From: Eledone cirrhosa
Taxonomy: Eukaryota
Length of the DNA: 64,000 nucleotides
Reading direction: 5' to 3'
NCBI GenBank assembly: GCA_964016885.1
Contig: CAXHJY010001320.1
Coordinates: forward strand, 12,525 to 76,524
Position numbers and translations under genes: made by a program. This document shows positions 4,681 through 62,014 of the stretch, piece after piece. The notes beneath the pieces were generated by a model that did no database searches, was not told the DNA's origin, and was given only the letters and a program-made list of their open reading frames with translations. Position 1 is the stretch's first letter; each line of letters opens with the position of its first letter.

Positions 4681-4759
4681 TAACTTGCTCCTTAACGGTT
4701 GAGTGCTTACTCTCATATTGGATACCTTTTGATGGTCCTTTACCGTTTTCTTCTACAAC

Positions 4760-7254
4760 ATGGATTATTACAACATAACCAATTCAACTAAAGACATTCC
4801 TATACCTGGTAAATCTGAATTCACCAAACTTCTAATTGAAAAAACTGACTCCTTCGTAAGAAGACTTAGATGGATAGCCTATTTCTATGACCAGCGCCTA
4901 AAAGGGAACTTCTATACCAAGGAACATAACTTCCTCGATTATCTATTTAATTCTAGAAGAAATCCTCCTTCCAACAAAAATCTAGTGCAATTCGAAGAAG
5001 AGTTAACTAAAATTATAAAAAATCTTAAATTCAAGAGATACCCTTACAAAGGACAAGAGCACCTTGTAAATCTCAAGAACACAATTTCAAACCTAAATTC
5101 CTCAAAAAATGTTTTAGTCCACTCTGACAAAACCAATAACTTATATGGTATTTCCAAGGATAATTATAACAACCTTATCCTAAAGGAACTTAGGAAAAAA
5201 TATCGTAAAACCAACCATGATAATTTAGAACACATAAACTTTGAAGCCTCTGAGATTATGTCAAAACTTGGCATTGAAAAAAAGACCGAACCATTCCTCC
5301 CAAGAACTCCGAGGATAAATCTCAAGGATCACAAAAACAATTTTCGCACTGAACTACCTGTTAGATTAATCGCCCCCTCTAAATCAGATCTGGGGGTTGT
5401 TAGTAAAGCCATCTTGGATAGAATTATCCCACAGGTTCGTTCTAATTGCTCTTCTTTGAACCTAAATTTATGGTTTGGTACTTCTGAAGTGATTAGCTGG
5501 TTCAACAAATTGAATAATAAAAACAAACTAAAATTTGTTCAATTTGATATTGCCAGCTACTATTCTTCTATTTCGCCTTCACTTCTCAATAATGCTCTAT
5601 CTTTCGCACTTAAATATTCTGACATCACCACAGATGAACTTCACATCATTCTCACCGCATGTAAAACCATCCTAGAGTTCAACAACGAATATTGGACCAG
5701 AGCCGATACCTCTAACAACTTCGACATCACAATGGGAGCATCCGATTCATCCCAATTGACAGATTTAATTGGTATCTTTATTTTGAACTCTTTGAGTCGG
5801 AAAATTCCTCAACTTCGCGGTGGAATTTATCGTGACGATGGACTCTTTACTATCTTAAATTGCAACATAGTTAACCTTAATATTATTAAGAACAATATAC
5901 GTAATCTCTTTAACCAACATAACCTAAAAATTGAATTTGATAATAGCATCAAACTAGCTAATTTCTTGGATGTATCTCTTAATCTTGACACTGGCCTATA
6001 TTACCCTTACCATAAAAACAATGAGAACCTAAATTATGTTAACTTTAAATCTAACCATCCTACTAATATCAAGAATGCTATAGTTAGTAATATTGGAAAA
6101 AGAATATCTAACCTATCTTCTAATAAAAACATCTTTGATGCTAACGCCAATTACTATAATAACGCGCTTTCTAAAGCCGGCTATCCTGATAAAATCAAAT
6201 ATAGTAAAGAAACAAATTCTAGAAGAACTTACAGTAGAATAATTAATCATGATCATTCCAATAACTTTAATAAAAGACCTAGATACAAAAACATAATCTG
6301 GTATAATGCTCCTTTCTCCATCTCTATTAATAACAATATTAGGCATCCAGCTGTAGAAATTAAGCCAGAATCAGTTCCCGTCCCACCCTTGCAAGCAGGG
6401 AAAAAGCGGACGTAAAATGAAATGATGAATGATGATTACTAAATTATTCTTTAGTGCCTTAAATAAATGCTTCCCTCCCTCACATATCTATAGTAAAATA
6501 TTTAACAAACACACTATAAAATTTTCCTATTCTACATCCTCCAACATTTCCAACATTACCTCTAAACACAACAATAAAATACTAAATACTAAATCTCTTC
6601 CTTCCAACACTGAATATCATAATAATAGTAATAGTACTCCTGACGTCATTGTAAACCCTAGGCTAATTTCTGCAAACCCAAATACGTCAAACACAACTTC
6701 GCTAAATGTTCTTAATCCCATTCTAAATCAAGAAACTATTATTCCTATCGCAAATAACTTCTCCAATCCAATTCCTTCTATAGATAACACTAGGTCACTC
6801 GTTAATAATCTCTCTAATCGCAATTGCAATTGCCCTGTTAAAAATAAATGTCCTCTCAACAACCATTGTCTTGATAAAAACTTAATTTACGAATGTAAAG
6901 TTATAACTGACACCAATTCCTTCACCTATTTTGGCTCCACTTCCACCTCTTTTAAAGCTCGTCTTTATAACCATCATTCGTCTTTTAAATACAAACTTAA
7001 AAGAACCAACACGGCTCTCTCAGAACTCATATGGTCCTTGAAAGACAAAAATATTAAATATAGCATCTTTTGGAAGAAGGTTTCTTCTGCGTCTCCATAC
7101 TTGAACAGTTCTCTATCCAAAATTTGCAATCTCTGTCTAAATGAAAAAATTTACCATTATATCTAATTAAGATTCTATAATAAATAGACGCACTGACTTG
7201 TTTTCTATCTGCTTGCATAAATTCCACAAAACATTCCACAAAGTATACAGCTAA
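4760..7254 (+). pseudogene. Penelope-like element PLE-1 (Naiad-type), RT + C-terminal GIY-YIG endonuclease, disrupted
   Basis: Motifs include SDKTNNLY, FDIASYYSSI, FDITMGASD, IYRDDGL, FLDVSLNL, SNHP, WYNAPF, CNC-x5-CPL-x3-C, YFGSTSTSFKARLYNH and CNLCLNEK. It is split by a 97-bp insertion, and there is a frameshift plus stop near 7150 before INRRTDLFSICLHK. Confidence 0.9.
6342..6438 (+). mobile_element. 5'-truncated SINE family 2 tail inserted into PLE-1
   Basis: It matches 19719-19801 (GGCATCCAGCTGTAGAAAT...CGGACGTAAAATGAAATG) and ends in (GAT)n-like repeats. ATTA is duplicated at 6338-6341 and 6435-6438. Confidence 0.9.
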
Positions 7255-29644: not shown

Positions 29645-29930
29645 TTTGTTGGTTCTGATGAGTGTTCCAGTTGTTTGATTGTGAAATAAACTTGTAAGTG
29701 GCCGAGCATTCCACAGATACATGTCTCAATGTAATTCTCAGGTATGTTTAGCGTGACAGAATATGGAACCAAACTGTCCCTTTGAATCATAGGTACAACT
29801 TATTTTAGCCAGCTGAGTGGATTGAGGCAACATAAAATAAAGTGTCCTACACAAGAATACAATGTGCTGCCAGGAATAGAAATCATGACTCAGATTGTGA
29901 ACTGAACACCCTAACTACTAAGCCATGTGC
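29645..29930 (-). mobile_element. tRNA-headed SINE sharing its head with family 2 but with a different tail
   Basis: The minus strand starts GGCACATGGCTTAGTAGTTAG and contains GACACTTTATTT...CACTCAGCTG. The tail resembles 9640-9935. Confidence 0.6.
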
Positions 29931-33230: not shown

Positions 33231-33897
33231 ATCATCATCAACGTTTAACGTCCGTGTTCCACGCTTGCATGGGTTTGGACGGGGGTATTCCCACTTGAGG
33301 CAAGAGTGATTGTCTTGCTCGCAGAGGACTGTCTGGCAGGTTTTCTACAGTTGGATGCCCTTCCTAACACCAACCACATTTACAGTGGGTCTGGGAGGTT
33401 TTTACCGTGTTGCCTACACGGCCACATTACAGCGTGGACTGTGTGTTTTTTTGTCGTGACACCTACACGATCTCATTTGTTTCGGCCTGGATGGTGTGGC
33501 ACCAACATAACTTTACATAGGAGGCGGTGGTGTGGATGGGGTGGGGGTGGTGGGACGGGGGTGTATTTTGTTAGAGATGCCTACTGGCTGTAGTAGGTTT
33601 TACTATGTATTTAGGCAAGGCGGGTCTTCTCTATTACTGAGTACCGCCAAAGGTCTTGGTCCAGTGACATAGTCTTGGAGAGGTGTAAGTGTGTGAGGTC
33701 GGAGTTTATCAGCCCGTCCCAGGATTTTCTAGGTCTGCCTATTCCGTGGCTACCGTCTATCTTTATTGCCCTGCACTTTGTTATACAGCTATCGACTTTC
33801 ATACGCATCACGTGTCCGTACCAACGTAGCCTTCTCTCGAGTAAACAACATCTGATCCCTCTTATTTCTAATTTTTTCCTTAGTTCGTTTATGCTTT
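33231..33897 (-). mobile_element. RTE-B LINE, 5'-truncated 3' end
   Basis: It encodes [21 protein letters not shown]...GRPRKSW and has a (GAT)n tail. Both flanks are TA arrays. Confidence 0.92.
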
Positions 33898-35452: not shown

Positions 35453-35607
35453 CACACAGATACACACACACATACACATACATACACACACACACACACA
35501 CATATACACAAATAAATACACTCACACGCATACATACAAACATGAGTATACATATGTATAAATATCTATACACACACACATATACACACATATATATATA
35601 CACATAT

Positions 35608-35660
<53 letters not shown>

Positions 35661-35772
35661 TATATATATCCATACATATACAAACATACACATACATACA
35701 CAGACCTATACATAAATATACACATATATATACAGACATATAACGCATATATACACACACATATACATATAC

Positions 35773-35825
<53 letters not shown>

Positions 35826-35828
<3 letters not shown>

Positions 35829-38800
35829 GATGGGATGGGTGGTGTAGGTATACTATTAGCTGACAAGTGGGTAGATAAAGTAATCTCAGTGTACAGGGTA
35901 AATGCAAGAATCATTAAACTTAGACTAGTCCTGAATAAGACAATTACCACAATAATATCAGCTTACGCACCCCAATCGGGGCTGCCAGACGAACTTAAGG
36001 ATAGGTTTTACGAGTCCCTAATACACACTACTGCTCTAACAGACGACAAGGACTTCCTAATCATTGCAGGAGATTTTAACGGACACGTAGGTAAACACTG
36101 CGACGGCTTCAATAGAGTACATGGAGGCCATGGAGTTGGCACAAGGAATGAGGAAGGATTCAGACTTCTAGAATTCTGCGACGCCAATGACATGTCGATA
36201 TGTAACACAAACTTTAAAAAACCCGACAACCACCTGATCACCTATAGATCAGGGGAGCACTCTAGTCAGTTAGATTTTATCCTCATCAGAGGACGTGACA
36301 GATGGACGGTCGTAAACACAAAAGCCTTCCCTAGTGAGGAATGTACATCCCAACATAGCTTAGTTGTCAGCGACCTCACGGTCAGAACTAGACGAGCCCT
36401 GAAACAGAGGCCAACCTGGAGAAGAAAGATCTGGAAGCTGAAAGTCCCCTCAACCAGTAACAGATTTAAAGATATTTTACTCAACGCCTACGACAGTAAA
36501 GAAGAACAGATAGAGACATTTAACGTAGAAGAGAACTGGGAGTTCCTAAAAAATAACTTACTAGAGGCGACGGATGAGGTTTGTGGCTGGAGTAAGACCT
36601 CAAGCAGGAGGAGAGTGACTTGGTGGTGGAACAATAAGGTAGATGAAGCAGTCAAGGCCAAGAGACAGGCATGGAAAGAATGGAAGAACGGGGGGAGCAG
36701 GGTACATTACATAGAGACCAAGAGGGAAGCTAGGCGACAAGTATACTTAGCTAGGAGGGAAGCAGAGGATAGAAAATTCAAGCATGTTTTACAACGTGAG
36801 GACCAGAAACAGGAGGTATTCAAGATTGCGAGGCAGTGTGTCAGAGATAGTTGTGATGTCATTGGAGAGAAGTGTATCCGGAATGATAAAGGTGAGCTTG
36901 CCCTCACAAGTGCTGAGAAGAAAGATGCATGGAAGAGTCATTATGATAGATTACTAAATGAGGAGAATGCATGGGAAGAAGAGACCCTACCCCACGTAGA
37001 CCCTATAGAGGGACCAGCAGTACAAGTCAGCGGCAGCGTAGTAAGTAAGGCAATCAGAGATATGAAGATAGGGAAGGCAACCGGTCCATCGGGTATAGCT
37101 GCCGAGATGCTGAAGGCATCTGGGTCTGTAGGTCACACTATAACCACACGTATCGTTAACCAGGTAATACTAGAGGGGGCCATACCAAAAGATTGGTGCA
37201 GTAGCATCATTGTCAACTGCTACAAAGGTAAAGGCGATGCACTAGATAGAGGAAACTATAGAGGTATAAAGTTGATGGACCAGGTCATGAAAGTAACAGA
37301 AAGAGTTATAGCACAGCTGATTAGGGACCGGGTGAATATAGACGAGATGCAATTTGGGTTTGTACCAGGGAAAGGCACCACTGATGCCCTCTTCCTTGTG
37401 AGGCAATTACAGGAAAAGTACCTAGCTAAAAGTAAGCCACTCTACTTGGCATTTGTCGACCTTGAGAAAGCCTTTGACAGAGTTCCACGTGCAGTAATCT
37501 GGTGGGCTCTTAGAAAACTAGGAGTAGATGAATGGCTTGTGAAAGCGGTACAAGCCATGTATAGGGGAGCAGTCAGCAAAGTTAGGATTGGCAATGAGTA
37601 TAGCGAGGAATTTAGCGTACAGGTTGGGGTCCACCAGGGCTCTGTTCTTAGCCCTCTCCTGTTCATCATAGTCCTGCAGGCAATAACGGAGGAGTTTAAG
37701 ACCGGATGCCCATGGGAACTCCTGTATGCTGATGACCTCGCACTCATAGCTGAATCTATGGTAGAACTAGAGAATAAATTCCAAACCTGGAAGCAGGGAC
37801 TAGAGAGAAAGGGCCTCAAAGTCAACATGACAAAGACTAAGGTCCTTGTAAGTAGACGAGAAAACAGAACGCAGATCCCCTCAGGGAAATGGCCTTGCTC
37901 AGTATGTAGGAAAGGTGTAGGTAGAAACTCCATTCTCTGCCCCAAATGCAAACAATGGGTACACAAGAGATGTAGCGGGATCTCAGGAAGCTTAATTAAG
38001 AATGTAGGATTCACATGCAGCAGCTGTGCTGAAACAGCAAGCAAACAGCCACAGGAAACAAGTACCACCAATCTCTGGGAGGGCCCTGTAGAAACAGTAG
38101 ACAGCTTCTGCTACCTAGGTGACCGAATTAGCAACGGAGGTGGGTGCTCAGAAAGTACAATAACTAGGGTAAGAACGGGATGGAAGAAGTTTAGGGAACT
38201 ACTACCACTGCTAGCTGCAAAAGGCTTCTCCCTCAGAATGAAAGGCAGACTGTATGATGCGTGTATCCGAACAGCGATGTTGCATGGTAGTGAGACCTGG
38301 GCGCTGAAGGTGGAAGACTTACGTAGATTAGAGAGAAACGAAGCCTGCATGCTCCGATGGATGTGTAACAGTAATATACGTGAACGACAAAGCATAAAGG
38401 AATTGAGAGAGAGACTGAGCATAAGAGGAATCAAATGCTGCGTGCAGGAGAGGCGGTTACGCTGGTATGGACATGTGATGCGTATGAAGGATGACAGCTG
38501 CATAAAAAGGTGCAGAGCACTAGAAGTTGATGGAAACCGCGGAGTGGGGAGACCCAAGATGACTTGGGATGAGGTGATAAAAGCCGACCTTACCCAACTA
38601 CACCTCTCAAAGTCAATGACACACGACCGTGACTTCTGGCGTCACGCAGTAATACAGGGTACCCGACCTCCCATGGGTACATGCTGAAGCATATAAACAA
38701 TATGCCCCCCCCCCCCCCTCCACCGCAAGGTGGCCGTGGAGGTGCCACGGCAAAAAAGCACCCAGCCCACACTGTAAAGTGGACGTGTAGGCGCCACGAA

Positions 38801-39885: not shown

Positions 39886-42027
39886 TTAGCCATCGGGTTT
39901 TAACACTGGCTTAAAATGTTTGAATGTTGCAAAGTTCTTGTGCATGCAGTTCGGGCAGTGTTCAGAGAGTTTGTTCAGTAGCGGACCCTTGGCGAATAAA
40001 ATTTCGTAGCTCTCTGAAATACAAAGGTCGCAGCCCTTGTGTCCTCCGTTGTAAGAGCGCGCTTCCTGGAGTATTTTCCAATTAAGCGTGAAGGGGGTGG
40101 AGTTCCTTTTGAGGTCCCAAACGTAGGAGGCGAGCGTTGTCTGATTTGATTTATCCGGTCTTCTGAAGGAGTGGGTATGGGCATACCAACGGGTCTTAAA
40201 GTTGTTGGAGGTCATGCCGATGTAAGTTTTTTTGCAATCCTCGGTGCCTGAGATGACATCGCATTTGTATACGATGTCATTTGTGAGGCATTTGTTTTCT
40301 AGTGGGCATGCTTCCTTATTTAGGCAATTACATAGAGCCCCAGTCCGGGGATTGGTTTCGGAGGTGGTTGGCTTATTTAGTTTAGAGTTGTGGTTGGCTA
40401 TATTCCTAGCTAGGTTAGGTGTGGTGGAGTAAGACAGTCTTATAGTGTTCTTATTAAAGATGGTGTAGTACCTATGTTGTATGGGGAAGTGTAATTTCAG
40501 TAAAGTGAAGAAAATCCTAGCTATCGGAGTAGATACCTCTCTATTGAAGGGAGGGTTGTACCAGCTAATCTGCCTATGTCTATTCCTCCTCTGCAATTTT
40601 GCGGTGGTTTCTAGGTAAGTTATCTTATCTTTAAATCCGCTACGGGCTAGGGCGTCATTGTAGTAGGAGGCAGATGCATTAAAAATATCTTTGTTGGCGG
40701 AGAGGCCAGATATTCTAATAGAGACGCTTTTTACTAGGTTATCAGTGATGTTTTGGGGGTGGTTTGAATTAACATTAATATATTTAAGGGACTCGTGAGG
40801 TTTGTGGTACGGGTAATAGAGGGAAGTATCTAGGTCGAGAGTGACATCTAAGAAGTTGGCCCTAGTCAAATTAGAATCTATAGTTATACTAAATCCTAGG
40901 TTAGAGAAGAAAGAGCTTAAGTTTTTCCGAAACCCATCGGTGGTTCTGGGGCTAACCTTATGCAGGGCGAAGTGGCCGTCGTCTCGGTATAAACCTCCAG
41001 TTAGGCCGGTAAAGAGGTTCTTCAGGTTATGTAGGATGTACAGGCCCACAAGGTCGCTAATTTCAGCCGAGTCACTCGCCCCCATGCTAACGTCAAATGG
41101 GGTCTGAGATTTCTTGTTGATCCAGTAAGATCCATCGTGGTATAGAAAGGTCTTACGAGCGTGGAGGATAATAACTTGCTCAGCATCGGTAATGGTGGTA
41201 AAATTCCTGGCAAAGTTAATTGCGTCCTTCAGGAGGGGCTCCGAGATAGAGGCATAGTAGTTTTCTATGTCGAGTTGCAGGAAGCGAGTGTGGTGTTTAT
41301 CGGGTAATTCTTGGAACCATGATATTGCCTCAGATGTTCTACTCCAGAGTGGAAGTGGTGAGGCTGCCCGCAATGATGGTAGAACTCTATCCAGGATCTT
41401 CTTACTGATAGAGCCGATGTCGGAACGAGTGGGGTTGATAAGTCTGACTGATGGTTTGTTGAGGAAATTTCCCTTATGGTCCTTCAGGGTAAAGTGCGGG
41501 GTCTTTACCCTTAAAGGTTCGGTTCGGTCATGTAATTTAAGGGACTTGGCGATTTCTTTTCCGGCCGCGTTTGTCTCAGTCAGCGCCCTCTCTATTACCT
41601 TTTTGTAGGTGGTCGTGATGGTATTTTTTGCCAGCTTATTGTAGGTCTGTGGGTCTACCTCATAAACGTTTTTGGTTTTATCGGAGGAGACATAAAGATT
41701 AGGGGATTTTTTTATATTCCGTAATTCGGCATTTAAGTAGGCCTGGAATGGTGTGGTGGCTCTACGGAATTTAATATCCTTGATCATCTTGAAGAGGTCT
41801 TCTTCAAATGGTTGGAGTAGGCTGTTGGTGGGTGGTGTCTTATTCGTTTTGAAGCCGAACTTCTCATCATTGGTAGATGCTACATCAGGGTTGTCGAGGA
41901 AGAAGGCCCTCCATCTAATTCGCTTGATGAACTCGTCGGTACGTCTGATGAGTGTTTTTAAGTATAGTTTCCTTGGAGGGATAGGGATGTTCTTCAAGGA
42001 AATATCAAGGTCGAGTTTGGTCAGCAT
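39886..42027 (-). CDS. PLE-2 RT/GIY-YIG polyprotein, intact, 713 aa from first ATG
   Basis: Motifs are [67 protein letters not shown]-x5-CPL-x3-[24 protein letters not shown] and CMHK. There are no internal stops. Confidence 0.95.
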
Positions 42028-42112
42028 GGTTTCTTGATGATGGTTATAAGAGGCACAGAGAGTGCTAAAATGTACGTTATTCCGGGTTGAATCGGAGGTA
42101 ACCACAGACTTT

Positions 42113-42660
42113 ACCTCTAACTTTAAGACCCGTTGGTATGCCCATACCCACTCCTTCAGAAGACCGGATAAATCAAATCAGACAACGCTCGCCTCCTACG
42201 TTTGGGACCTCAAAAGGAACTCCACCCCTTCACGCTTAATTGGAAAATACTCCAGAAAGCGCGCTCTTACAACGGAGGACACAAGGGCTGCGACCTTTGT
42301 ATTTCAGAGAGCTACGAAATTTTATTCGCCAAGGGCCCGCTACTGAACAAACTCTCTGAACACTGCCCGAACTGCATGCACAAGAACTTTGCAACATTCA
42401 AACATTTTAAGCCAGTGTTAAAACCCGATGGCTAAAAACGACCTCCCCCTATTGGCCCCTATACCTCCTCCCCACCCTACCCCCACCCCTCCTCAACCTG
42501 AAATACGGCCACTATGGTTTACGTGAGTACCTCTTTCGTATCTACATTATCTGCCTGTAGAGGTGTCTTTATATGCCTGCGTATATGCGTATATTTATTG
42601 AGTACCTATTTACTTGTATGTGTATATATTTGTTTGTATATGTGTATGTGTGTGTGTGTG

Positions 42661-51173: not shown

Positions 51174-52414
51174 TCGTGACACCTACACGATCTCATTTGT
51201 TTCGGCCTGGATGTTGTGGGACCAACATAACTTTACATTGAAAGGGGCGGTGTGGATGGGGTGAAGGTGGTGGGACGGGGGGGTGTTTTGATAGAGATGC
51301 CTACTGACTGTAGTAGGTTTTTACTTTGTATTTAGGTAAGGCAGGTCTTCTCTATTACTGAGTACCGCCAAAGGTCTCGGTCCAGTGACATTGTCTTGGA
51401 GAGGTGTAAGCGTGTGAGGTCGGAATTTATCAGCTCGTCCCATGTTTTTCTGGGTCTGCCTACTCCGTGGCTACCGTCTATCTTTATTGCCCTGCACTTT
51501 GTTATACAGCTGTCGTCTTTCATGCGCATCACGTGACCGTACCAACGTAGCCTTCTCTCGAGTAAACAACATCTGATCCCTCTTATTTCTAATTTTTTCC
51601 TTAGTTCGTTTATGCTTTGCCGTTCACGTATATTACTATTGCACATCCAGCGGAGCATGCAAGCTTCGTTCCTCTCTAGTCTGCGTATATCCTCTGCACA
51701 CAATGCCCAGGTCCACTGCCATGCAGCATTGCTGTTCGTATGCAGGCATCGTATAACCTGCCTTTCATTTTTAGGGAGAACCCTCTAGCGGCTAATAGTG
51801 GTATAAGCTCTCTGAACTTTTTCCATCCAGTTCTGACTCTAGCTACTGTACTTTCAGAGCACCCTCCCCCACTGCTGATTTTGTCACCCAGGTAACGGAA
51901 GCTGTCCACTATTTCTATAGAACCCTCTGCGCAGTTGAAGGAGCTAGTATTTTGTGGGCACTTGCTGCTACTTATTGCACCAGAGCACCGGCCACATGTA
52001 AAATCTATGTTCTTAGTTAGCTTACCTGTGATCCCACTACATCTTTTATGCACCCATACTTTGCATTTGGGACATAAAATGGAGTTTCTACCTACGCCTT
52101 TCCTACACACTGAGCATGGCCATTTCCCAGATGGGACCGCCGCCTTATTTTCTTTCCTACAAACTAGAACTTTAGTCTTAGCCAGGTTAATTTTAAGGCC
52201 TTTTGATTCTAGGCCGTGCTTCCATGTTTGGAATTTCTTCTCTAGTTTGGTCATTGATTCAGCTATGAGCGTTAGATCATCTGCGTATAGGAGTTCCCAT
52301 GGGCAGCCGGTCTTGAACTCCTCTGTTATAGCCTGAAGGGCAATAATAAATAGTAGGGGGCTAAGAACAGAGCCCTGATGGACACCAACTTTTACGCTAA
52401 ACTCTTCACTATAT
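50912..52414 (-). mobile_element. RTE-B LINE, 5'-truncated, one frameshift
   Basis: It contains [16 protein letters not shown], the PHD finger, RWYGHV and a (GAT)n tail. Confidence 0.93.
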
Positions 52415-52452
52415 ATACATACATATAAATATATCTATATATAAATATATAC

Positions 52453-52483
<31 letters not shown>

Positions 52484-52486
52484 AAT

Positions 52487-52523
<37 letters not shown>

Positions 52524-52524
52524 A

Positions 52525-52589
<65 letters not shown>

Positions 52590-52628
52590 TATATATATAA
52601 ATATATATAAATATATATATATATATAT

Positions 52629-52898
52629 AAGTACCTAGCTAAAGGTAAACCCCTCTACTTAGCTTTTGTCGACTTGGAGAAAGCCTTCGACAGAGTCCCC
52701 CGCTCCATTATCTGGTGGGCTCTTAGAAAACTAGGCATTGACGAATGGCTTGTGAGAGCTATACAAGTCATGTATAAAGAAACAGTCAGCAAGGTCTTGA
52801 ACTCCTCTGTTATAGCCTGAAGGGCAATAATAAATAGTAGGGGGCTAAGAACAGAGCCCTGATGGACACCAACTTTTACGCTAAACTCTTCACTATAT
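52629..52898. mobile_element. chimeric RTE-B fragment (+ 52629-52792 fused to - 52793-52898)
   Basis: The + part equals the start of the 56306 copy. The - part equals 52310-52414. Confidence 0.9.
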
Positions 52899-52930
52899 AT
52901 ATATACATACATATAAATATATATATATAA

Positions 52931-53003
<73 letters not shown>

Positions 53004-53189
53004 AAATATTAAACAAATAATGAATAAAACAATGAAACAGTTCCTTATATTAAACAAAAAAAGTTCATTATTTAACGATCGTTTCTAGGATATATATGTG
53101 TTAGAATTGGCATGCATATTCAACAGATCTATGTACAAAATGATACAAAATTATACAAACTATCATTACTACCGTAAACTCTTGGTAGA

Positions 53190-54197
<1,008 letters not shown>

Positions 54198-55666
54198 TAG
54201 AAAACTAGGAGTAGATGAATGGCTTGTGAAAGCGGTACAAGCCATGTATAGGGGAGCAGTCAGCAAAGTTAGGATTGCAATGAGTATAGCGAGGAATTTA
54301 GCGTACAGGTTGGGGTCCACCAGGGCTCTGTTCTTAGCCCTCTCCTGTTCATCATAGTCCTGCAGGCAATAACGAAGGAGTTTAAGACCGGATGCCCATG
54401 GAACTCCTGTATGCTGATGACCTCGCACTCATAGCTGAATCTATGGTAGAACTAGAGAATAAATTCCAAACCTGGAAGCAGGGACTAGAGAGAAAGGGCC
54501 TCAAAGTCAACATGACAAAGACTAAGGTCCTTATAAGTAGACGAGAAAACAGAACCCAGATCCCCTCAGGGAAATGGCCTTGCTCAGTATGTAGGAAAGG
54601 TGTAGGTAGGAACTCCATTCTTTGCCCCAAATGCAAACAATGGGTACACAAGAGATGTAGCGGGATCTCAGGAAGCTTAATTAAGAATGTAGGATTCACA
54701 TGCAGCAGCTGTGCTGAAACAGCAAGCAAACAGCCACAGGAAACAAGTACCACCAATCTCTGGGAGGGCCCTGTAGAAACAGTAGACAGCTTCTGCTACC
54801 TAGGTGACCGAATTAGCAACGGAGGTGGGTGCTCAGAAAGTACAATAACTAGGGTAAGAACGGGATGGAAGAAGTTTAGGGAACTACTACCACTGCTAGC
54901 TGCAAAAGGCTTCTCCCTCAGAATGAAAGGCAGACTGTATGATGCGTGTATCCGAACAGCGATGTTGCATGGTAGTGAGACCTGGGCGCTGAAGGTGGAA
55001 GACTTACGTAGATTAGAGAGAAACGAAGCCTGCATGCTCCGATGGATGTGTAACAGTAATATACGTGAACGACAAAGCATAAATGAATTGAGAGAGAGAC
55101 TGAGCATAAGAGGAATCAAATGCTGCGTGCAGGAGAGGCGGTTACGCTGGTATGGACATGTGATGCGTATGAAGGATGACAGCTGCATAAAAAGGTGCAG
55201 AGCACTAGAAGTTGATGGAAACCGCGGAGTGGGGAGACCCAAGATGACTTGGGATGAGGTGATAAAAGCCGACCTTACCCAACTACACCTCTCAAAGTCA
55301 ATGACACACGACCGTGACTTCTGGCGTCACGCAGTAATACAGGGTACCCGACCTCCCATGGGTACATGCTGAAGCATATAAACAATATGCCCCCCCCCCC
55401 CCCCCCCCCATGGAGGTGCCACGGCAAAAAAGCACCCAGCCCACACTGTAAAGTGGACGTGTAGGCGCCACGAAAAAGCACCCAGCACTCACTGTAAATG
55501 AGGTTGGTGTTAGGAAGGGCATCCAGCTGTAGAAATCAAGCCAGATCAGTTCCTGTATGAGCAAGGCATGGTCAGCCGACCAGACACTGCCCACAACAGG
55601 ACAACCCGTCTAACCCATGCTAGCGTGGAAGAACGGACGTAAAAACGGTGATGATGATGATGATGA

Positions 55667-56305: not shown

Positions 56306-57393
56306 AAGTACCTAGCTAAAGGTAAACCCCTCTACTTAGCTTTTGTCGACTTGGAGAAAGCCTTCGACAGAGTCCCCCGCTCCATTATCTGGTGGGCTCT
56401 TAGAAAACTAGGCGTTGACGAATGGCTTGTGAGAGCTATACAAGCCATGTATAAAGAAACAGTCAGCAAAGTTAGAATTAACAACGAATATAGTGAAGAG
56501 TTTAGCGTAAAAGTTGGCGTCCATCAGGGCTCTGTTCTTAGCCCCCTACTATTTATTATTGCCCTTCAGGCTATAACAGAGGAGTTCAAGACCGGCTGCC
56601 CATGGGAACTCCTATACGCAGACGACCTGACACTCATAGCGGAATCAATGGCCGAGCTAGAGAAGAAATTCCAAACATGGAAGCACGGCCTAGAATCAAA
56701 AGGACTTAAAATTAACCTGGCTAAGACTAAAGTTCTAGTTTGTAGGAAAGAAAATTAAGGCGGCGGTCCCTTCTGGGAAATGGTCGTGCTCGGTGTGTAG
56801 GAAAGGCGTAGGTAGAAACTCCATTTTATGTCCTAAATGCAAAGTATGGGTGCCTAAAAGATGTAGTGGGATCACAGGTAAGCTAACTAAGAACATAGAT
56901 TTTACATGTGGCCGGTGCTCTGGTGCAATAAGTAGCAGCAAGTGCCCACAAAATACTAGCTCTTTCAATTGCGCAGAGGGTTCTATAGAAATAGTGGACA
57001 GTTTCCGTTACCTGGGTGATAAAATCAGCAGTGGGGGAGGGTGCTCTGAAAGTACAGTAGCTAGAGTCAGAACTGGTTGGAAAAAGTTCAGAGAGCTTAT
57101 ACCACTATTAGCTGCTAAAGGGTTCTCCCTAAAAATGAAAGGCAGGTTGTACGATGCCTGCATACGAACAGCAATGTTGCATGGCAGTGAGACCTGGGCA
57201 TTGTGTGCAGAGGATATACGCAGACTAGAGAGGAACGAAGCTTGCATGCTCCGCTGGATGTGTAACAGTAATATACGTGAACGGCAAAGCATAAACGAAC
57301 TAAGGAAAAAATTAGAAATAAGAGGGATCAGATGTTGTTTACTCGAGAGAAGGCTACGTTGGTATGGACACGTGATGCGCATGAAAGTCGATA
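56306..57393 (+). mobile_element. RTE-B internal fragment, truncated at both ends
   Basis: It runs from [11 protein letters not shown] to [12 protein letters not shown] and ends abruptly at the hammerhead repeat. Confidence 0.93.
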
Positions 57394-57566
57394 ACAAATA
57401 ACGAAACGAAATTAAATTTCGTTTCGTTATTTGTTTTTATCGTCTCCGTTGAACCGGTACGTACTCACACTCTATGCAAATTAGTCTGCCCACTACTAAT
57501 TTTCATAGAAAAAGCATATAACGATATGTGCTTTTACGATTCTCCAGAAAGGCCGGTAGATAGGTA

Positions 57567-57611
57567 AATATTGCTGATGAGTTGTAACAACAACGAAACT
57601 AGTTCAATATT
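57567..57611 (+). ncRNA. minimal type I hammerhead ribozyme (unit 1)
   Basis: The fold is AATATTG-CTGATGA-GTTGTaacaACAAC-GAAA-CTAG-TT-CAATATT, with triplet GUU and palindromic stem III. Confidence 0.92.
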
Positions 57612-58041
57612 CCTTGTCTGGCTTTCTGGAGAATAGAGGAAAGGTGTTTCCTCAAAAACCAGTATGACTCTAAAAACCGGTTTGTCTGTGTGTTTACATA
57701 CAGAATAGCTGGACACTCACGGTAAAGTGACCAGTGAAAAACTTGGTACATCTACATATGTATACGTGTGTGTATTCATATGCATACTAGTATTTCAGTA
57801 TACATATGTGGATGTACATTTTTAACTTAATTATATATATATATATAAATATATATAAATATATATATAAATAAACGAAATTTAATTTCGTTTCGTTATT
57901 TGTTTTTATCGTTTCCGCTGAACCGGTGCGTACAATGACTCACGTTCTATGCAAATTAGTCTACCCACTACTAATTTTCATAGAAAAAGCATATAACGAT
58001 ATGTGCTTTTACAATTCTCCAGAGAAGCCGGAAGATGGGTA

Positions 58042-58085
58042 AATATTGCTGATGAGATGTAATACATCGAAACTAGTCCAATATT
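58042..58085 (+). ncRNA. minimal type I hammerhead ribozyme (unit 2)
   Basis: The fold is AATATTG-CTGATGA-GATGTaatACATC-GAAA-CTAG-TC-CAATATT, with triplet GUC. Stem II shows a compensatory change versus unit 1. Confidence 0.93.
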
Positions 58086-58394
58086 CCTGTCTGGCCCTCT
58101 GGAGAATAGAGGAAATGTGTTTCCTTGAAAACTCGTATGACTCTAAAACCCGGTCCGTCTGTGTGGTTACATACAGACTAGCTGACACTCACTGTAAAGT
58201 GTCTAGTGAAAGGCTCAGTACATGTACATATGTATACATGTGTGTATTTATATGCATACTAATACTTCCGTATACATATGTAGATGTACACTTTAACTTA
58301 ATTGTTTAAGCGTCAGTCATACAAAAGTGAGTTAGAAGCGAAACGAAATTTAATTTCGTTTCGTTATTTGTTTTTATATATATATATATAAATA

Positions 58395-59423
58395 TAGTAA
58401 TAATAATAAAATTGATGACTAAAATCCAAAGAGGGCTCGATAAGGAAAATATATATCAAATATATAAGAACCGTAGAGCAAATATTTATTAAAATAACAG
58501 ATTAAAGTTTAAGCAAAGAATCGCTGCTTTCACCCTTAACGGGATCTTCTGAAACTAACAAAGTCAATCTGTAAACGCAGAACTGGATATTTCAAAAAAC
58601 GTTGCAACGGAGGAAGACAGGAAGACGATACTTTGGTTCGTGGTAACGTTCACTGGCAAAGAACGGGAAAAAACGAATAATACGTCATTAATAGGAGCGG
58701 TGAAAAACAATTACGCGCAAAGACAGAACCACGTTTATGGTATAAAAGAGGTCGTAGGCTAATGTTCTCTTAGGTGGTGCATAGAGACGTTCTCTGGCAA
58801 TGAACGAAAAAACGAAGATAATAAGTCATATGTGGAGCGTGGAGAACAATAGCACGCAAAGACAAAATCACGTAAATGGTAAGCAGAAGTCGTAGACTAA
58901 AATTCTAACTAGGAGACCAAATGAATCTCCGCTACAGAGTTAAGAACAAAGTAAATAAATACAATACAGAAGTAATAGAAACAAATAAATACATACACGC
59001 AAACAGATACGTACATACACAAACATACGCATAACCTTACCATAGGTATACAAAACCACGCACATATAAATATGTATGTGTGTGTATGCTTGTGTACAAA
59101 TAAATAAATAATTATATAAACGTATAAGAATAAATAAATACGTATATAACAAGCGCACACACATACCTACATATAAATACACGAATGTTCGGAGACGTAA
59201 GTCAACTAAAACAAGAAGTACACATATACACACACCCACCATACGTACGAACCTGCATACTCACGCAGACGCAAAACTCCCGTATTCACATAGCCAAACC
59301 CTAAATACCAGAATATGTAAAACTTATACGCCATAACAGTCAAATATACGTACGAGAAGGTATACATACCTTCACAAAACATACGGGTAATTGCGTGTAT
59401 GTATTTATTTGTTTCTATTACTT
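58395..59423 (-). mobile_element. PLE pseudo-LTR/UTR fragment related to 8160-8582
   Basis: It shares GCTCGATAAGGAwAATATATATCAAATATATAAGAACC and the HHR region with 8340-8582. 59391-59423 is a 33-bp inverted copy of 58970-59002. Confidence 0.7.
58506..58556 (-). ncRNA. type I hammerhead ribozyme, non-canonical core (CAGAAGA)
   Basis: The reverse complement folds as AGTTT-CAGAAGA-tCCCgttaaGGGt-GAAA-GCAgcgattcttTGC-TT-AAACT. Confidence 0.62.
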
Positions 59424-60464
59424 AGTTTCACTGAATTACTAAAGCTGATTGGTTTAAGCGTCACGGCTGGTTGAGCATGCTAACGACCAATGAACATATC
59501 CAAAGCATCAATTGTTTTGTTATGTTTAGAAATGATGAAAATAGCATTTTCTGTTAATCATCACCATCAACATCACTTTTGTTGTTGTTGGTGGTGGTGG
59601 TGGTCGCCGTCGTCGTCGTCGTCGTCGTAGTACCCCTAAGCGTTATTATTGTTCATTTAGCTTGGGTTTGAATTTATCAATAAAATTCTTTTCTTTGATT
59701 TTTCTCTTGATTTCACTTGGGCTGTGTACAGATACCCCATCTGTCCATCAGATACCCCTAAGCGGCCACCTGGCAACATGTGGTCAGGCAATATTTATAA
59801 TATTCCCATTCTACAAATTACACAGCCCAAGTGAAATCAAGAGAAAAATCAAAGAAAAGAATTTTATTGATAAATTCAAACCCAAGCTAAATGAACAATA
59901 ATAATGCTTAGGGGTACTACTTCTACTACCACTATGACCATGACCACTAACAACAACAACAATAATAATAATAAAAGTGATGTTGATGGTGATGATTAAT
60001 AGAAAATGCTATTTTCATCATTTCTAAACATAACAAAACAATTGATGCTTTGGATATGTTCATTGGTCGTTAGCATGCTCAACCAGCCGTGACGCTTAAA
60101 CCAATCAGCTTTAGTAATTCAGTGAAACTACACACTGATTGGTCGAAATACAGTTTACAGGGCTTAGCATTCTGGAGCCACTTTTCTCTGTATAAAATGT
60201 ATAAAAGGTAGGAAATTTACCCATCTCATTACAGTTGAAAATTGCAAACTCAACTGTCACCACATATTATGAACCTGAAGATTGCGAAAGCATGAAAGTG
60301 CTTGTTCAATTAACACTTAGAATTTAATATTCTATCATACTATTTCATTATAATACCATTATATATTTTAAAGGATTGTAAATAAAACGAGTAAATCAGA
60401 CAAAGTTGGAATTCCTCTTATTAATAATCTTCTATACACAATCATACACACCCGTATCTATATC

Positions 60465-60545: not shown

Positions 60546-62014
60546 ATAGTAGGGGGCTAAGAACAGAGCCCTTGGTGTTCATCAGGGCTCTGTTCTTAGC
60601 CCCCTACTATTTATTATTGCCCTCCAGGCTATAACAGTGGAGTTCAAGACCGGCTGCCCATGGGAACTCCTATACGCAGATGATCTAACGCTCATAGCTG
60701 AATCAATGGCCGAGCTAGAGAAGAAATTCCAAACATGGAAGCACGGCCTAGAATCAAAAGGCCTTAAAATTAACCTGGCTAAGACTAAAGTTCTAGTTTG
60801 TAAGAAAGAAAATAAGGCGGCGGTCCCCTCCGGGAAGTGGCCATGCGCAGAGTGTAGGAAAGGCGTAGGTAGAAATTCCATTTTGTGTCCCAAATGCAAA
60901 GTTTGGGTGCATAAAAGATGTAGTGGGATCACAGGTAAGCTAACTAAGAACATAGATTTTACATGTGGCCGGTGTTCTGGGGCAATAAGTAGCAGCAAGT
61001 GCCCACAAAATACTAGCTCTTTCAACTGCGCAGAGGGTTCTATAGAAATAGTGGACAGCTTCCGTTACCTGGGTGACAAAATCAGCAGTGGGGGAGGGTG
61101 CTCTGAAAGTACAGTAGCTAGAGTCAGAACTGGTTGGAAAAAGTTCAGAGAGCTTATACCACTATTAGCTGCTAAAGGGTTCTCCCTAAAAATGAAAGGC
61201 AGGTTGTACGATGCCTGCATACGAACAGCAATGTTGCATGGCAGTGAGACCTGGGCATTGTGTGCAGAGGATATACGCAGACTAGAGAGAAACGAAGCTT
61301 GCATGCTCCGCTGGATGTGTAATAGTAATATACGTGAACGACAAAGCATAAACGAACTAAGGAAAAAATTAGAAATAAGAGGGATCAGATGTTGTTTACT
61401 CGAGAGAAGGCTACGTTGCTATGGTCACGTGATGCACATTAAGGACGATAGCTGTATAACAAAGTGCAGGGCAATAAAGATAGACGGTAGCCACGGAATA
61501 GGCAGACCCAGAAAAACCTGGGACGAGCTGATAAACTCCGACCTCACACACTTACACCTCACCAAGACAATGTCACTGGACCGAGACCTTTGGCGGTACT
61601 CAGTCATAGAGAAGACCCGTCTTACCTAAATACAAAGTAAAACCTACTACAGTCAGTAGGCATCTCTAACAAAATACACCCCCGTCCCACCACCCCCACC
61701 CCATCCACACCGCCCCCTTCTATGTAAAGTTATGTTGGTGCCACACCATCCAGGCCGAAACAAATGAGATCGTGTAGGTGTCACGACAAAAAAACACACA
61801 GTCCACGCTGTAATGTGGCCGTGTAGGCAACACGGTAAAAACCTCCCAGACCCACACTGTAAATGTGGTTGGTGTTAGGAAGGGCATCCAACTGTAGAAA
61901 ACCTGCCAGACAGTCCTATGCGAGCAAGACAATCACTCTTGCCTCAAGTGGGAAAACTCCCGTCCAAACCCATGCAAGCATGGAACATGGACGTTAAACG
62001 ATGATGATGATGAT
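60546..62014 (+). mobile_element. RTE-B LINE, 5'-truncated with 5' fold-back
   Basis: It has a 330-aa RT C-terminus with PHD finger, a 3' UTR and a (GAT)n tail. A 27-bp inverted repeat lies at 60546-60572/60584-60610. Confidence 0.94.

What the first reader, a model, noticed from the sequence alone, without database searches (positions are those of the whole stretch)
57393..58376. Retrozyme/viroid-like module: ~468-nt non-coding tandem repeat with paired hammerheads and compensatory structure
Seen: two diverged units plus the start of a third, each with a complete hammerhead core (CUGAUGA...GAAA...GUH) and a palindromic stem III (ACUAGU). Stem II covaries between units (GUUGU/ACAAC to GAUGU/ACAUC). 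Stem I extends into a long outer helix that also covaries (UUCUCCAGAAAG/CUUUCUGGAGAA to UUCUCCAGAG/CUCUGGAGAA). Other hairpins fill the monomer: GAGGAAA..UUUCCUC, UCUGUGUG..CAUACAGA, GUACAUCUACAUAUGUAUAC..GUAUACAUAUGUGGAUGUAC and CGAAACGAAAUU..AAUUUCGUUUCG. Known: minimal type I hammerheads with palindromic stem III work as dimers, and non-LTR retrozymes are tandem HHR repeats that yield circular RNAs and are thought to use Penelope-like machinery. Inference: this is a non-autonomous ribozyme retroelement under structural selection. Cleavage after 57604 and 58078 would release a 474-nt monomer (57605-58078) that could circularise. I cannot tell whether this family is already described.
Basis: partly seen in the sequence, partly recalled or inferred. 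Interest (0 to 1): 0.88.

Follow-up and report, generated by a model that had tools for sequence, protein, structure and literature searches.

The report
Two hammerhead retrozymes inserted Penelope-style
These are two neighbouring copies, from two different subfamilies, of a very abundant non-coding repeat that carries a hammerhead ribozyme motif and sits in AT microsatellites as back-to-back arms ending at two fixed points; it is likely a new member of the known animal 'retrozyme' parasites, likely pasted in by Penelope-type transposon enzymes, and its predicted self-cutting and circular RNA are untested.

Summary
The hammerheads, hairpins and cleavage positions are real. The pair is not one native tandem array: unit 1 is a subfamily-A copy (466-nt period; 3 mismatches in 432 to its family) and unit 2 a subfamily-B copy (469-nt; 2 in 504), separated by an (AT)n tract, so the 474-nt product would be a chimera and the covariation is between subfamilies. 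The genome holds 9,276 exact A/B ribozyme cores and about 39,500 of this type (reversed-pattern controls 0-1), in at least five subfamilies with one predicted circular fold and compensatory changes. Insertions are mostly two arms joined head to head; 35 of 37 have one arm ending at site S1 and the other at S2, 74 nt apart, the Penelope 'tail' footprint, also seen in resident Neptune-type elements. Both arms share private variants (44 of 46). Verdict: new member of animal non-LTR retrozymes, likely mobilised by Penelope-like enzymes. No RNA evidence was obtained, the partner is unidentified, and a pure monomer-circle template is only partly supported. This scan has noted the same kind of element and footprint before on other DNA, including this genome.

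The parts
56308..57393 (+). Host LINE fragment (RT and PHD-finger region, one frameshift), cut at 57393; its 3' remainder is not found downstream in the window. Not part of the element.
   Evidence: RVT_1 E 4.7e-24; PHD; a sister copy at 33817 (-) continues past the same point; the LINE/repeat junction occurs once in the genome
57394..57413 (-). Very short inverted arm of the subfamily-A insertion, ending about 5 nt short of site S2; its inner boundary is ambiguous because the hairpin is self-complementary
   Evidence: (36-nt minus-strand match)
57401..57832 (+). Subfamily-A retrozyme arm (native period 466 nt), 5'-truncated, 3' end at fixed site S1
   Evidence: 3 mismatches in 432 to the family majority
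57568..57610 (+). Hammerhead of unit A: helix I 6 bp, CUGAUGA, helix II 5 bp, GAAA, palindromic ACUAGU; predicted cleavage after 57604; helix I extends through an internal loop to 57539-57634
57746..57817 (+). Long hairpin of unit A (a counterpart lies in unit B and in subfamilies C, D, E)
57833..57872 (.). Degenerate (AT)n tract: target of the A insertion and, inferred, later of the B insertion; replaces the native 33-40 nt linker
57873..58377 (+). Subfamily-B retrozyme copy (native period 469 nt), single-armed, 1.08 units, 3' end at fixed site S2
   Evidence: 2 mismatches and one deleted base in 504
58043..58084 (+). Hammerhead of unit B; predicted cleavage after 58078; loop II lacks one base relative to the B family
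58378..58393 (.). (AT)n tract shared, tail to tail, by the B copy and the neighbouring Penelope-type repeat
58394..58940 (-). Terminal repeat (pseudo-LTR) fragment of a Penelope-type element; separate insertion, no significant similarity to the retrozyme
   Evidence: 96% over 465 nt to L095 and 96% to L090, downstream of GIY-YIG-bearing frames

Best explanation
The locus holds two separate insertions of a non-coding, hammerhead-bearing repeat superfamily that is likely a non-LTR retrozyme, likely copied into (AT)n tracts by the reverse transcriptase and endonuclease of a Penelope-like element. Shown: the motif, the five subfamilies, the dispersed near-identical copies, the two fixed 3' ends, the head-to-head arms, the (AT)n flanks and the shared variants of the two arms. 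Inferred cycle: read-through transcription of a tandem array gives multimeric RNA; two neighbouring hammerheads likely pair through the palindromic ACUAGU and cut out monomers of 420-490 nt that may be ligated to circles; a Penelope protein dimer nicks both strands of an (AT)n tract and primes one cDNA at S1 and the other at S2 on the same RNA or the same donor's RNA; each cDNA runs through several units and ribozyme junctions, stops at a variable point, and the two are joined 5' to 5'. Here A inserted first (S1 arm in the microsatellite, a 20-nt S2-type arm on the LINE, with loss of the LINE's 3' part), and B later entered A's (AT)n flank.
For: Copy number: 9,276 exact A/B cores (control 0); 28,475 plus 11,054 cores of this type (controls 0 and 1). 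Best-scoring A and B copies are 98-100% identical and lie on many large contigs. Longest ATG frame in any of five monomers 51-66 codons. Circular folds z -6.0 to -10.4 against 25 shuffles each, sense strand more stable than antisense in 5 of 5. On 39 chosen pairs in 6 sequences 98.3% of cells pair, 10 pairs change on both sides, 3 of 500 shuffles reach that. Ends: of 54 A/B loci, 37 two-armed; 35 of 37 have S1+S2 (34, L253 resolved), p 5e-10 if ends were independent; 15 of 15 single-armed loci also end at S1 or S2; 83 of 92 printed ends have (AT)3 within 12 nt (my count). C, D, E have the same two ends at homologous positions 54-61 nt apart. Resident Neptune-type elements show two ends 41-68 nt apart running into (AT)n and two-armed copies with one of each. 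Arm haplotypes agree in 44 of 46 variants against 15% for wrong pairings. Papers: tail and inverted 5' copy as Penelope features (PMC8557442 passages); two internal start sites and nicking of both strands (PMC11167929); retrozyme circles in coral, mussel, axolotl (PMC7229834).
Against: No RNA evidence of any kind was obtained. No pseudo-LTR with significant similarity to the retrozyme was found among about six Penelope families sampled (best E 0.009, simple repeats and 12-24 nt words), unlike the Xenopus case (24 of 57 families matched known elements, bioRxiv 10.64898/2026.07.22.740005). In that preprint 8 of 9 predicted dimers did not cleave in vitro, and in PMC11167929 ribozyme cleavage was not needed for insertion. 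Variants present in only some units are shared across the two arms in 5 insertions (0.47 expected, maximum 3 in 2,000 wrong pairings) and recur within long arrays (40 cases), which a single monomer circle does not explain. The double-hammerhead was the predicted dimer optimum for A but not for B. Loci were picked as best-scoring matches or visible arrays, so the counts describe young copies. Covariation rests on only five related subfamilies and a structure derived from them.
Confidence: 0.85

Rival explanations
1. Same element and enzyme, but the template is an uncut linear multimer read from a donor array; circles, if made, are a by-product and the ribozyme has another role (for example trimming the transcript).
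For: Sub-array variants shared by both arms (5 vs 0.47), in L252 in mirrored order from the 3' ends; ribozyme mutants of an anole element still insert (PMC11167929).
Against: Some insertions have many identical units in both arms carrying the same private changes (L253: 6 plus at least 12 full units, 11 shared changes; L249); ribozyme helices covary across subfamilies; gene conversion between inverted arms could also produce the sharing.
Confidence: 0.35
2. A satellite-like repeat amplified at the DNA level (unequal exchange, fold-back duplication) from a stranded Penelope terminal repeat, with a vestigial ribozyme.
For: Recurrent variants inside long arrays suggest some DNA-level expansion; sporadic changes are strand-symmetric, A>G 20 vs T>C 22; the preprint proposes local amplification of terminal repeats.
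Against: Fixed 3' ends, variable 5' ends, one-S1-one-S2 pairing and thousands of dispersed young insertions are retrotransposition signatures; paired positions change together between subfamilies.
Confidence: 0.07
3. The repeat is the 3' part of, or is mobilised by, the adjacent LINE family.
For: The module directly follows a LINE frame in this window, and LINE copies here also end at (AT)n.
Against: The junction is unique in the genome (1 match), cuts the frame mid-codon region and carries an inverted arm; intact sister LINEs have a different 3' end; two alternative internal ends and obligatory pairing are Penelope features.
Confidence: 0.03
4. The repeat is simply the pseudo-LTR of an autonomous Penelope element not sampled here.
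For: Only 50 of 10,597 GIY-YIG candidates were fetched; the Xenopus families often match pseudo-LTRs.
Against: 0 of 185 ribozyme-bearing loci show the repeat as the same-strand terminal repeat of a Penelope frame; 18 have an unrelated-looking fragment nearby; arrays of 30 units without a frame exist. An ancestral origin from a pseudo-LTR remains possible.
Confidence: 0.08

Closest known systems
Animal non-LTR retrozymes (Cervera and de la Pena 2020, PMC7229834; Li, Clavereau and Pollet 2026, 10.64898/2026.07.22.740005)
   Same: Non-coding tandem repeats with one canonical type I hammerhead per unit, GC below 50% (0.35-0.38), no LTR, highly self-paired predicted circle with the ribozyme free to fold, tens of thousands of motifs, Penelope elements in the same genome. 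Helix III of 1 bp with a palindromic tetraloop as in axolotl HHR_Amex1; D and E have a U-U pair at the base of helix II as described for HHR_Amex2.
   Different: Units of 420-490 nt are above the 170-400 nt given for invertebrates in PMC7229834 though inside the 51-972 nt of the preprint; no pseudo-LTR homologue found; the two-armed, two-start-site insertion rule is not described in the parts of these papers that I read; no RNA data here.
EN+ Penelope-like elements (Neptune, Penelope/Poseidon, Naiad; PMC8557442, PMC11167929, PMC4209133)
   Same: 5'-truncated arms, inverted 5' copy, optional tail at one end only, AT-rich or (TA)n targets, hammerhead with palindromic helix III.
   Different: No RT or GIY-YIG frame; tail 54-74 nt instead of 30-40 nt (resident Neptune-type tails measured here are 41-68 nt); canonical rather than minimal ribozyme; arms of up to 31 units.
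Newt satellite 2 / amphibian hammerhead satellites (as described in PMC7229834; snRNA-type promoter recalled, from no call)
   Same: Weak helix III, expected to work as a dimer in multimeric transcripts.
   Different: No match to this genome's U1 or U2 upstream elements; the octamer-like word is one strand of a covarying helix and is altered in subfamily D.
Viroids and viroid-like circular RNAs (recalled)
   Same: Size, branched self-paired circle, hammerhead.
   Different: Genome-encoded in thousands of DNA copies; ribozyme on one polarity only (one search found none on the other strand here); no evidence of RNA-to-RNA replication or infectivity.

Membership tests
Animal non-LTR retrozyme | Type I hammerhead in each repeat unit | tested here: met
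   below Rfam gathering scores but complete core in both window units and in all five subfamilies
Animal non-LTR retrozyme | Head-to-tail tandem copies with at least two consecutive complete ribozymes | tested here: met
   family arrays of 2-31 units; the window pair itself is a chimera of two subfamilies, not a native dimer
Animal non-LTR retrozyme | Non-coding, no LTR, GC below 50% | tested here: met
   longest ATG frame 51-66 codons; GC 0.35-0.38; PBS and PPT were not searched for
Animal non-LTR retrozyme | Dispersed mobile copies | tested here: met
Animal non-LTR retrozyme | Highly self-paired predicted circular monomer | tested here: met
   prediction only; covariation
Animal non-LTR retrozyme | Self-cleavage of the transcript | not testable with these tools
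   needs in vitro transcription
Animal non-LTR retrozyme | Expression as linear and circular monomer RNA | not tested
Animal non-LTR retrozyme | Target-site duplication longer than 4 bp when present | tested here: inconclusive
   about 9-11 nt repeated on both sides in L260 and L048; not readable in pure (AT)n; absent at the window's A copy
Non-autonomous Penelope-dependent element | Inverted 5'-truncated arm and tail at one end only | tested here: met
   35 of 37 two-armed insertions
Non-autonomous Penelope-dependent element | Autonomous EN+ Penelope elements with the same target and end pattern in the genome | tested here: met
Non-autonomous Penelope-dependent element | Sequence similarity to the partner's pseudo-LTR | tested here: inconclusive
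   none among about six families sampled; sampling was 50 of 10,597 candidates
Autonomous Penelope-like element | RT plus GIY-YIG reading frame | tested here: not met
Minimal Penelope hammerhead (min-HHR) | Short helix I (4-5 bp), long helix II (7-8 bp), no defined loop 1 | tested here: not met
   helix I 6 bp with conserved internal loop, helix II 4-5 bp (definition)
snRNA-promoter satellite (newt satellite 2 type) | Internal snRNA-type proximal and distal elements | tested here: not met
   only AT-rich chance alignments to 13 U1/U2 upstream regions; U6 not examined

The most novel reading that the evidence does not exclude
A Penelope protein dimer primes both nicked strands on one retrozyme RNA at two structurally conserved start sites (loop of a small hairpin; U-rich strand after the next hairpin), always one each, and can copy ten or more units per arm; the five subfamilies are ribozyme RNA replicons selected for that docking fold without sequence kinship to the partner's terminal repeat, and mixed insertions such as L272 (retrozyme arm with long end, Neptune arm with short end) record the enzyme handling both RNAs.
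Probability: 0.45. Interest if true: 0.68.

Novelty: new member of a known kind. Interest (0 to 1): 0.45.

Why it matters
That Penelope enzymes mobilise animal retrozymes has been argued from co-occurrence and terminal-repeat similarity. Here the insertion footprint itself points to it, with a strict one-short-one-long rule and arm haplotypes that tie both arms to one template. A 466-nt non-coding RNA with two mapped start sites is a small substrate for the open question of how Penelope tails and inverted arms arise, and for whether circles or linear multimers are the template. About 39,500 cores of this type also make it a sizeable, recently active part of this genome. As a class it is known, and this particular locus is an end product rather than a likely source element.

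Tried and rejected
Rfam at gathering score: no hit in the window. No RNA holder listed among public runs; six holders of unknown kind in three studies: no evidence either way, and no reads or contigs were laid. snRNA-type internal promoter: rejected. ADAR or other strand-biased editing footprint in array variants: none, 229 changes over 307 units or part-units in 40 insertions, all six class pairs p above 0.08. LINE-retrozyme composite element: rejected. Search for a different family with the same helix III but another helix I: 758 matches (control 11), the 100 listed mostly point mutants of A-E; three odd ones inspected were not followed further. Partner by similarity: none; a 24-nt word near the octamer-like motif matches a Penelope-type repeat on the opposite strand at E 0.11, not significant. 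Candidate mixed insertion L272: the Neptune arm differs from its 11 nearest sisters' majority at 10 of 799 positions while the B units have 3 private changes in 1,237, so the Neptune copy may be older and a later deletion explains the junction equally well; kept as a lead only. Look-ups of earlier notes by sequence and by place returned nothing. Paper searches for the footprint in retrozymes: searches returned only PMC8557442 as relevant; (octopus, hammerhead, retrozyme; 20 of 97 listed) showed no description of such a family. A recalled Pfam accession was not in the library.

Full report
Observation. The two hammerhead cores, their predicted cleavage points (after 57604 and 58078), the extended helix I and the four hairpins are in the sequence as written. 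Rfam finds nothing at gathering score but gives Hammerhead_HH9 at E 3.6e-8 and Hammerhead_1 at E 5.7e-5; the two ribozyme regions fold at z -4.4 and -5.0. By the definition in PMC4209133 (passages) the motif is the canonical metazoan type I form (helix I 6 bp, helix III 1 bp with palindromic tetraloop), not the minimal Penelope form.

The pair is a chimera. Searching the 3.0-Gb genome with each unit returned different sets of copies: unit 1 found 466-nt arrays and unit 2 found 469-nt arrays, each 98-100% identical to its query and homogeneous within an array. Unit 1 has 3 mismatches in 432 to subfamily A and 42 in 428 to B; unit 2 has 2 mismatches and one deleted base in 504 to B and 43 in 498 to A. 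Unit 1 ends at a family end point (S1, 57832) and runs into (AT)n; unit 2 ends at the other family end point (S2, 58377). On the left a 20-nt inverted arm joins a LINE frame at 57393; a sister LINE continues past that point, and the junction is unique in the genome. On the right lies the terminal repeat of a Penelope-type element on the minus strand. So two insertions met in one microsatellite. The 474-nt stretch still folds strongly (z -10.5) but lacks one strand of the long-range helix kept in all native monomers.

The superfamily. Exact-pattern counts: 9,276 A/B-type cores (control 0), 11,054 cores with G or C opening helix II (control 1; includes the former), and 28,475 with A or T (control 0), about 39,500 motifs in all. 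These are motif counts, not insertions. Three more subfamilies (C, D, E; 420-490 nt) were found, C and D first by similarity in flanks and not by the pattern. All five fold as branched circles with the same helices and leave the ribozyme core free (z -6.0 to -10.4, 25 shuffles each). RNAalifold gives 19 of 81 pairs with a two-sided change; on 39 pairs that I chose, 98.3% of cells pair and 10 pairs change on both sides, with 3 of 500 shuffles as high and slid controls at 25-40%. The sequences are few and related and the structure was derived from them, so this is support, not a significance test. No monomer has an ATG frame above 66 codons.

Insertion footprint. Of 54 A/B loci examined (best-scoring matches and arrays that I picked, so young copies), 37 were called two-armed, joined 5' to 5' at variable points; 34 had one S1 and one S2 end, L253 became the 35th when its far end was fetched; L036 is S2/S2 with identical flanks and L025 has an aberrant end. 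L264 (S2+S1, missed by the junction filter) and L034 (two separate insertions) were left out of the 37; the 15 single-armed loci all end at S1 or S2. For 35 of 36 with both ends at fixed sites p is 5e-10 under independence. 83 of 92 printed ends have (AT)3 within 12 bases (my count). S1 and S2 are 74 nt apart in A and B and 54-61 nt in C-E, at homologous places that are more often unpaired than average. PMC8557442 (passages) lists the inverted 5' copy and the one-ended tail as Penelope features; PMC11167929 (parts 1-2 of 4) shows that the tail lies between two internal start sites and that both strands are nicked and extended. The genome has many GIY-YIG frames (150 scored of 10,597 candidates), several RT-GIY-YIG families (clade names Neptune and Penelope are my reading of recalled motifs, no tree was built), and three of them show two ends 41-68 nt apart into (AT)n with two-armed copies carrying one of each.

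Template. Arms run through many ribozyme junctions (up to 31 units), so the template was a circle or an uncut multimer. Majority variants of one arm are also those of the other in 44 of 46 cases (15% on average for wrong pairings), tying both arms to one template or donor; L253 has 6 and at least 12 identical full units with 11 private changes. Against a pure monomer circle, variants present in only some units are shared across arms in 5 insertions (0.47 expected) and 40 variants recur inside arrays; a mixed template, a multimer or later DNA exchange must contribute. No strand bias of changes was seen.

Partner. No terminal repeat sampled resembles the retrozyme, and 18 of 185 ribozyme-bearing loci have any Penelope frame fragment in their flanks. 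One, L272, has a B arm with the long end joined through 41 nt of inverted B to a 5'-truncated Neptune-type copy with the short end, the arrangement expected if one enzyme handled both RNAs; but the Neptune part looks older (10 of 799 differences against 3 private in 1,237), so it is a lead only.

Promoter and RNA. The octamer-like word is one side of a covarying helix and is changed in D, and U1/U2 upstream regions share nothing specific with the unit; transcription is likely read-through or from an unknown element. No RNA data were examined, so cleavage, circles and expression remain predictions; in the 2026 preprint (parts 1-3 of 5) only 1 of 9 predicted dimers cleaved.

Comparison and novelty. 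The element meets every sequence-level criterion of animal non-LTR retrozymes (PMC7229834: parts 2-3 of 6, Discussion and passages). It works like a non-autonomous Penelope element but is not an autonomous one. I found no printed description of this family or of the paired-end rule in retrozymes, but Repbase, Dfam, subscription journals and the supplements were not seen. This scan's earlier notes describe the same kind of element and footprint on other DNA, two of them in this genome; my reading was written before that look-up and they are not independent evidence. Verdict: real, new member of a known kind, with a testable mechanistic footprint; interest 0.45.

Noticed in passing
L272:2653-6390 (G000:C1:41489652-41493389): Two-armed insertion with a retrozyme B arm (long end) and a Neptune-type Penelope arm (short end) joined by 41 nt of inverted B; possible co-insertion or later deletion; age test leans to an older Neptune copy.
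   Followed up: partly
window 59423-60448: Two-armed fragment of a Neptune-type element (endonuclease C-terminus 93% to L094) forming the long inverted repeat; its terminal repeat ends at (AT)n near 60455.
   Followed up: partly
window 58394-58940 (-): Penelope-type terminal repeat with an internal 139-nt duplication and a hammerhead-like motif whose core reads CAGAAGA instead of CUGANGA; fragments of it flank many retrozyme loci.
   Followed up: partly
window 35562-38687, 51332-53008, 54200-55372, 56308-57393, 60553-61629: Several copies of an APE-type LINE with a PHD finger just after the RT domain (Pfam PF00628); RTE-like by recall, not tested.
   Followed up: no
window 39886-42432 and 4733-7236: Long frames with similarity to the Penelope-type protein of L095 (51% and 32-35%), the first in inverted arrangement; Pfam found nothing in them.
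   Followed up: no
L091:7200-7500 (-), L104:5480-5530: Neptune-type terminal repeats carry hammerhead-like motifs with 1-bp helix III and palindromic loops (CCGG, GUAC); one family reads UUGAAAA in the core, which would be a compensatory change of the C3-G8 pair (numbering recalled).
   Followed up: no
L171-L187, L206-L216: U1 and U2 genes lie in tandem arrays and share an upstream ACCTCCCTT-like word near -250, a TCAGT word near -58 and a TATA-like word near -30, with no octamer.
   Followed up: no
L188-L189 (G000:C1:5738093-5752746): A 31-unit arm opposite a 0.7-unit arm; units carry recurring variant combinations in a mosaic order.
   Followed up: partly
window 29655-29690: Isolated CUGAUGA...GAAA match without a convincing helix I or III; probably chance.
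   Followed up: no
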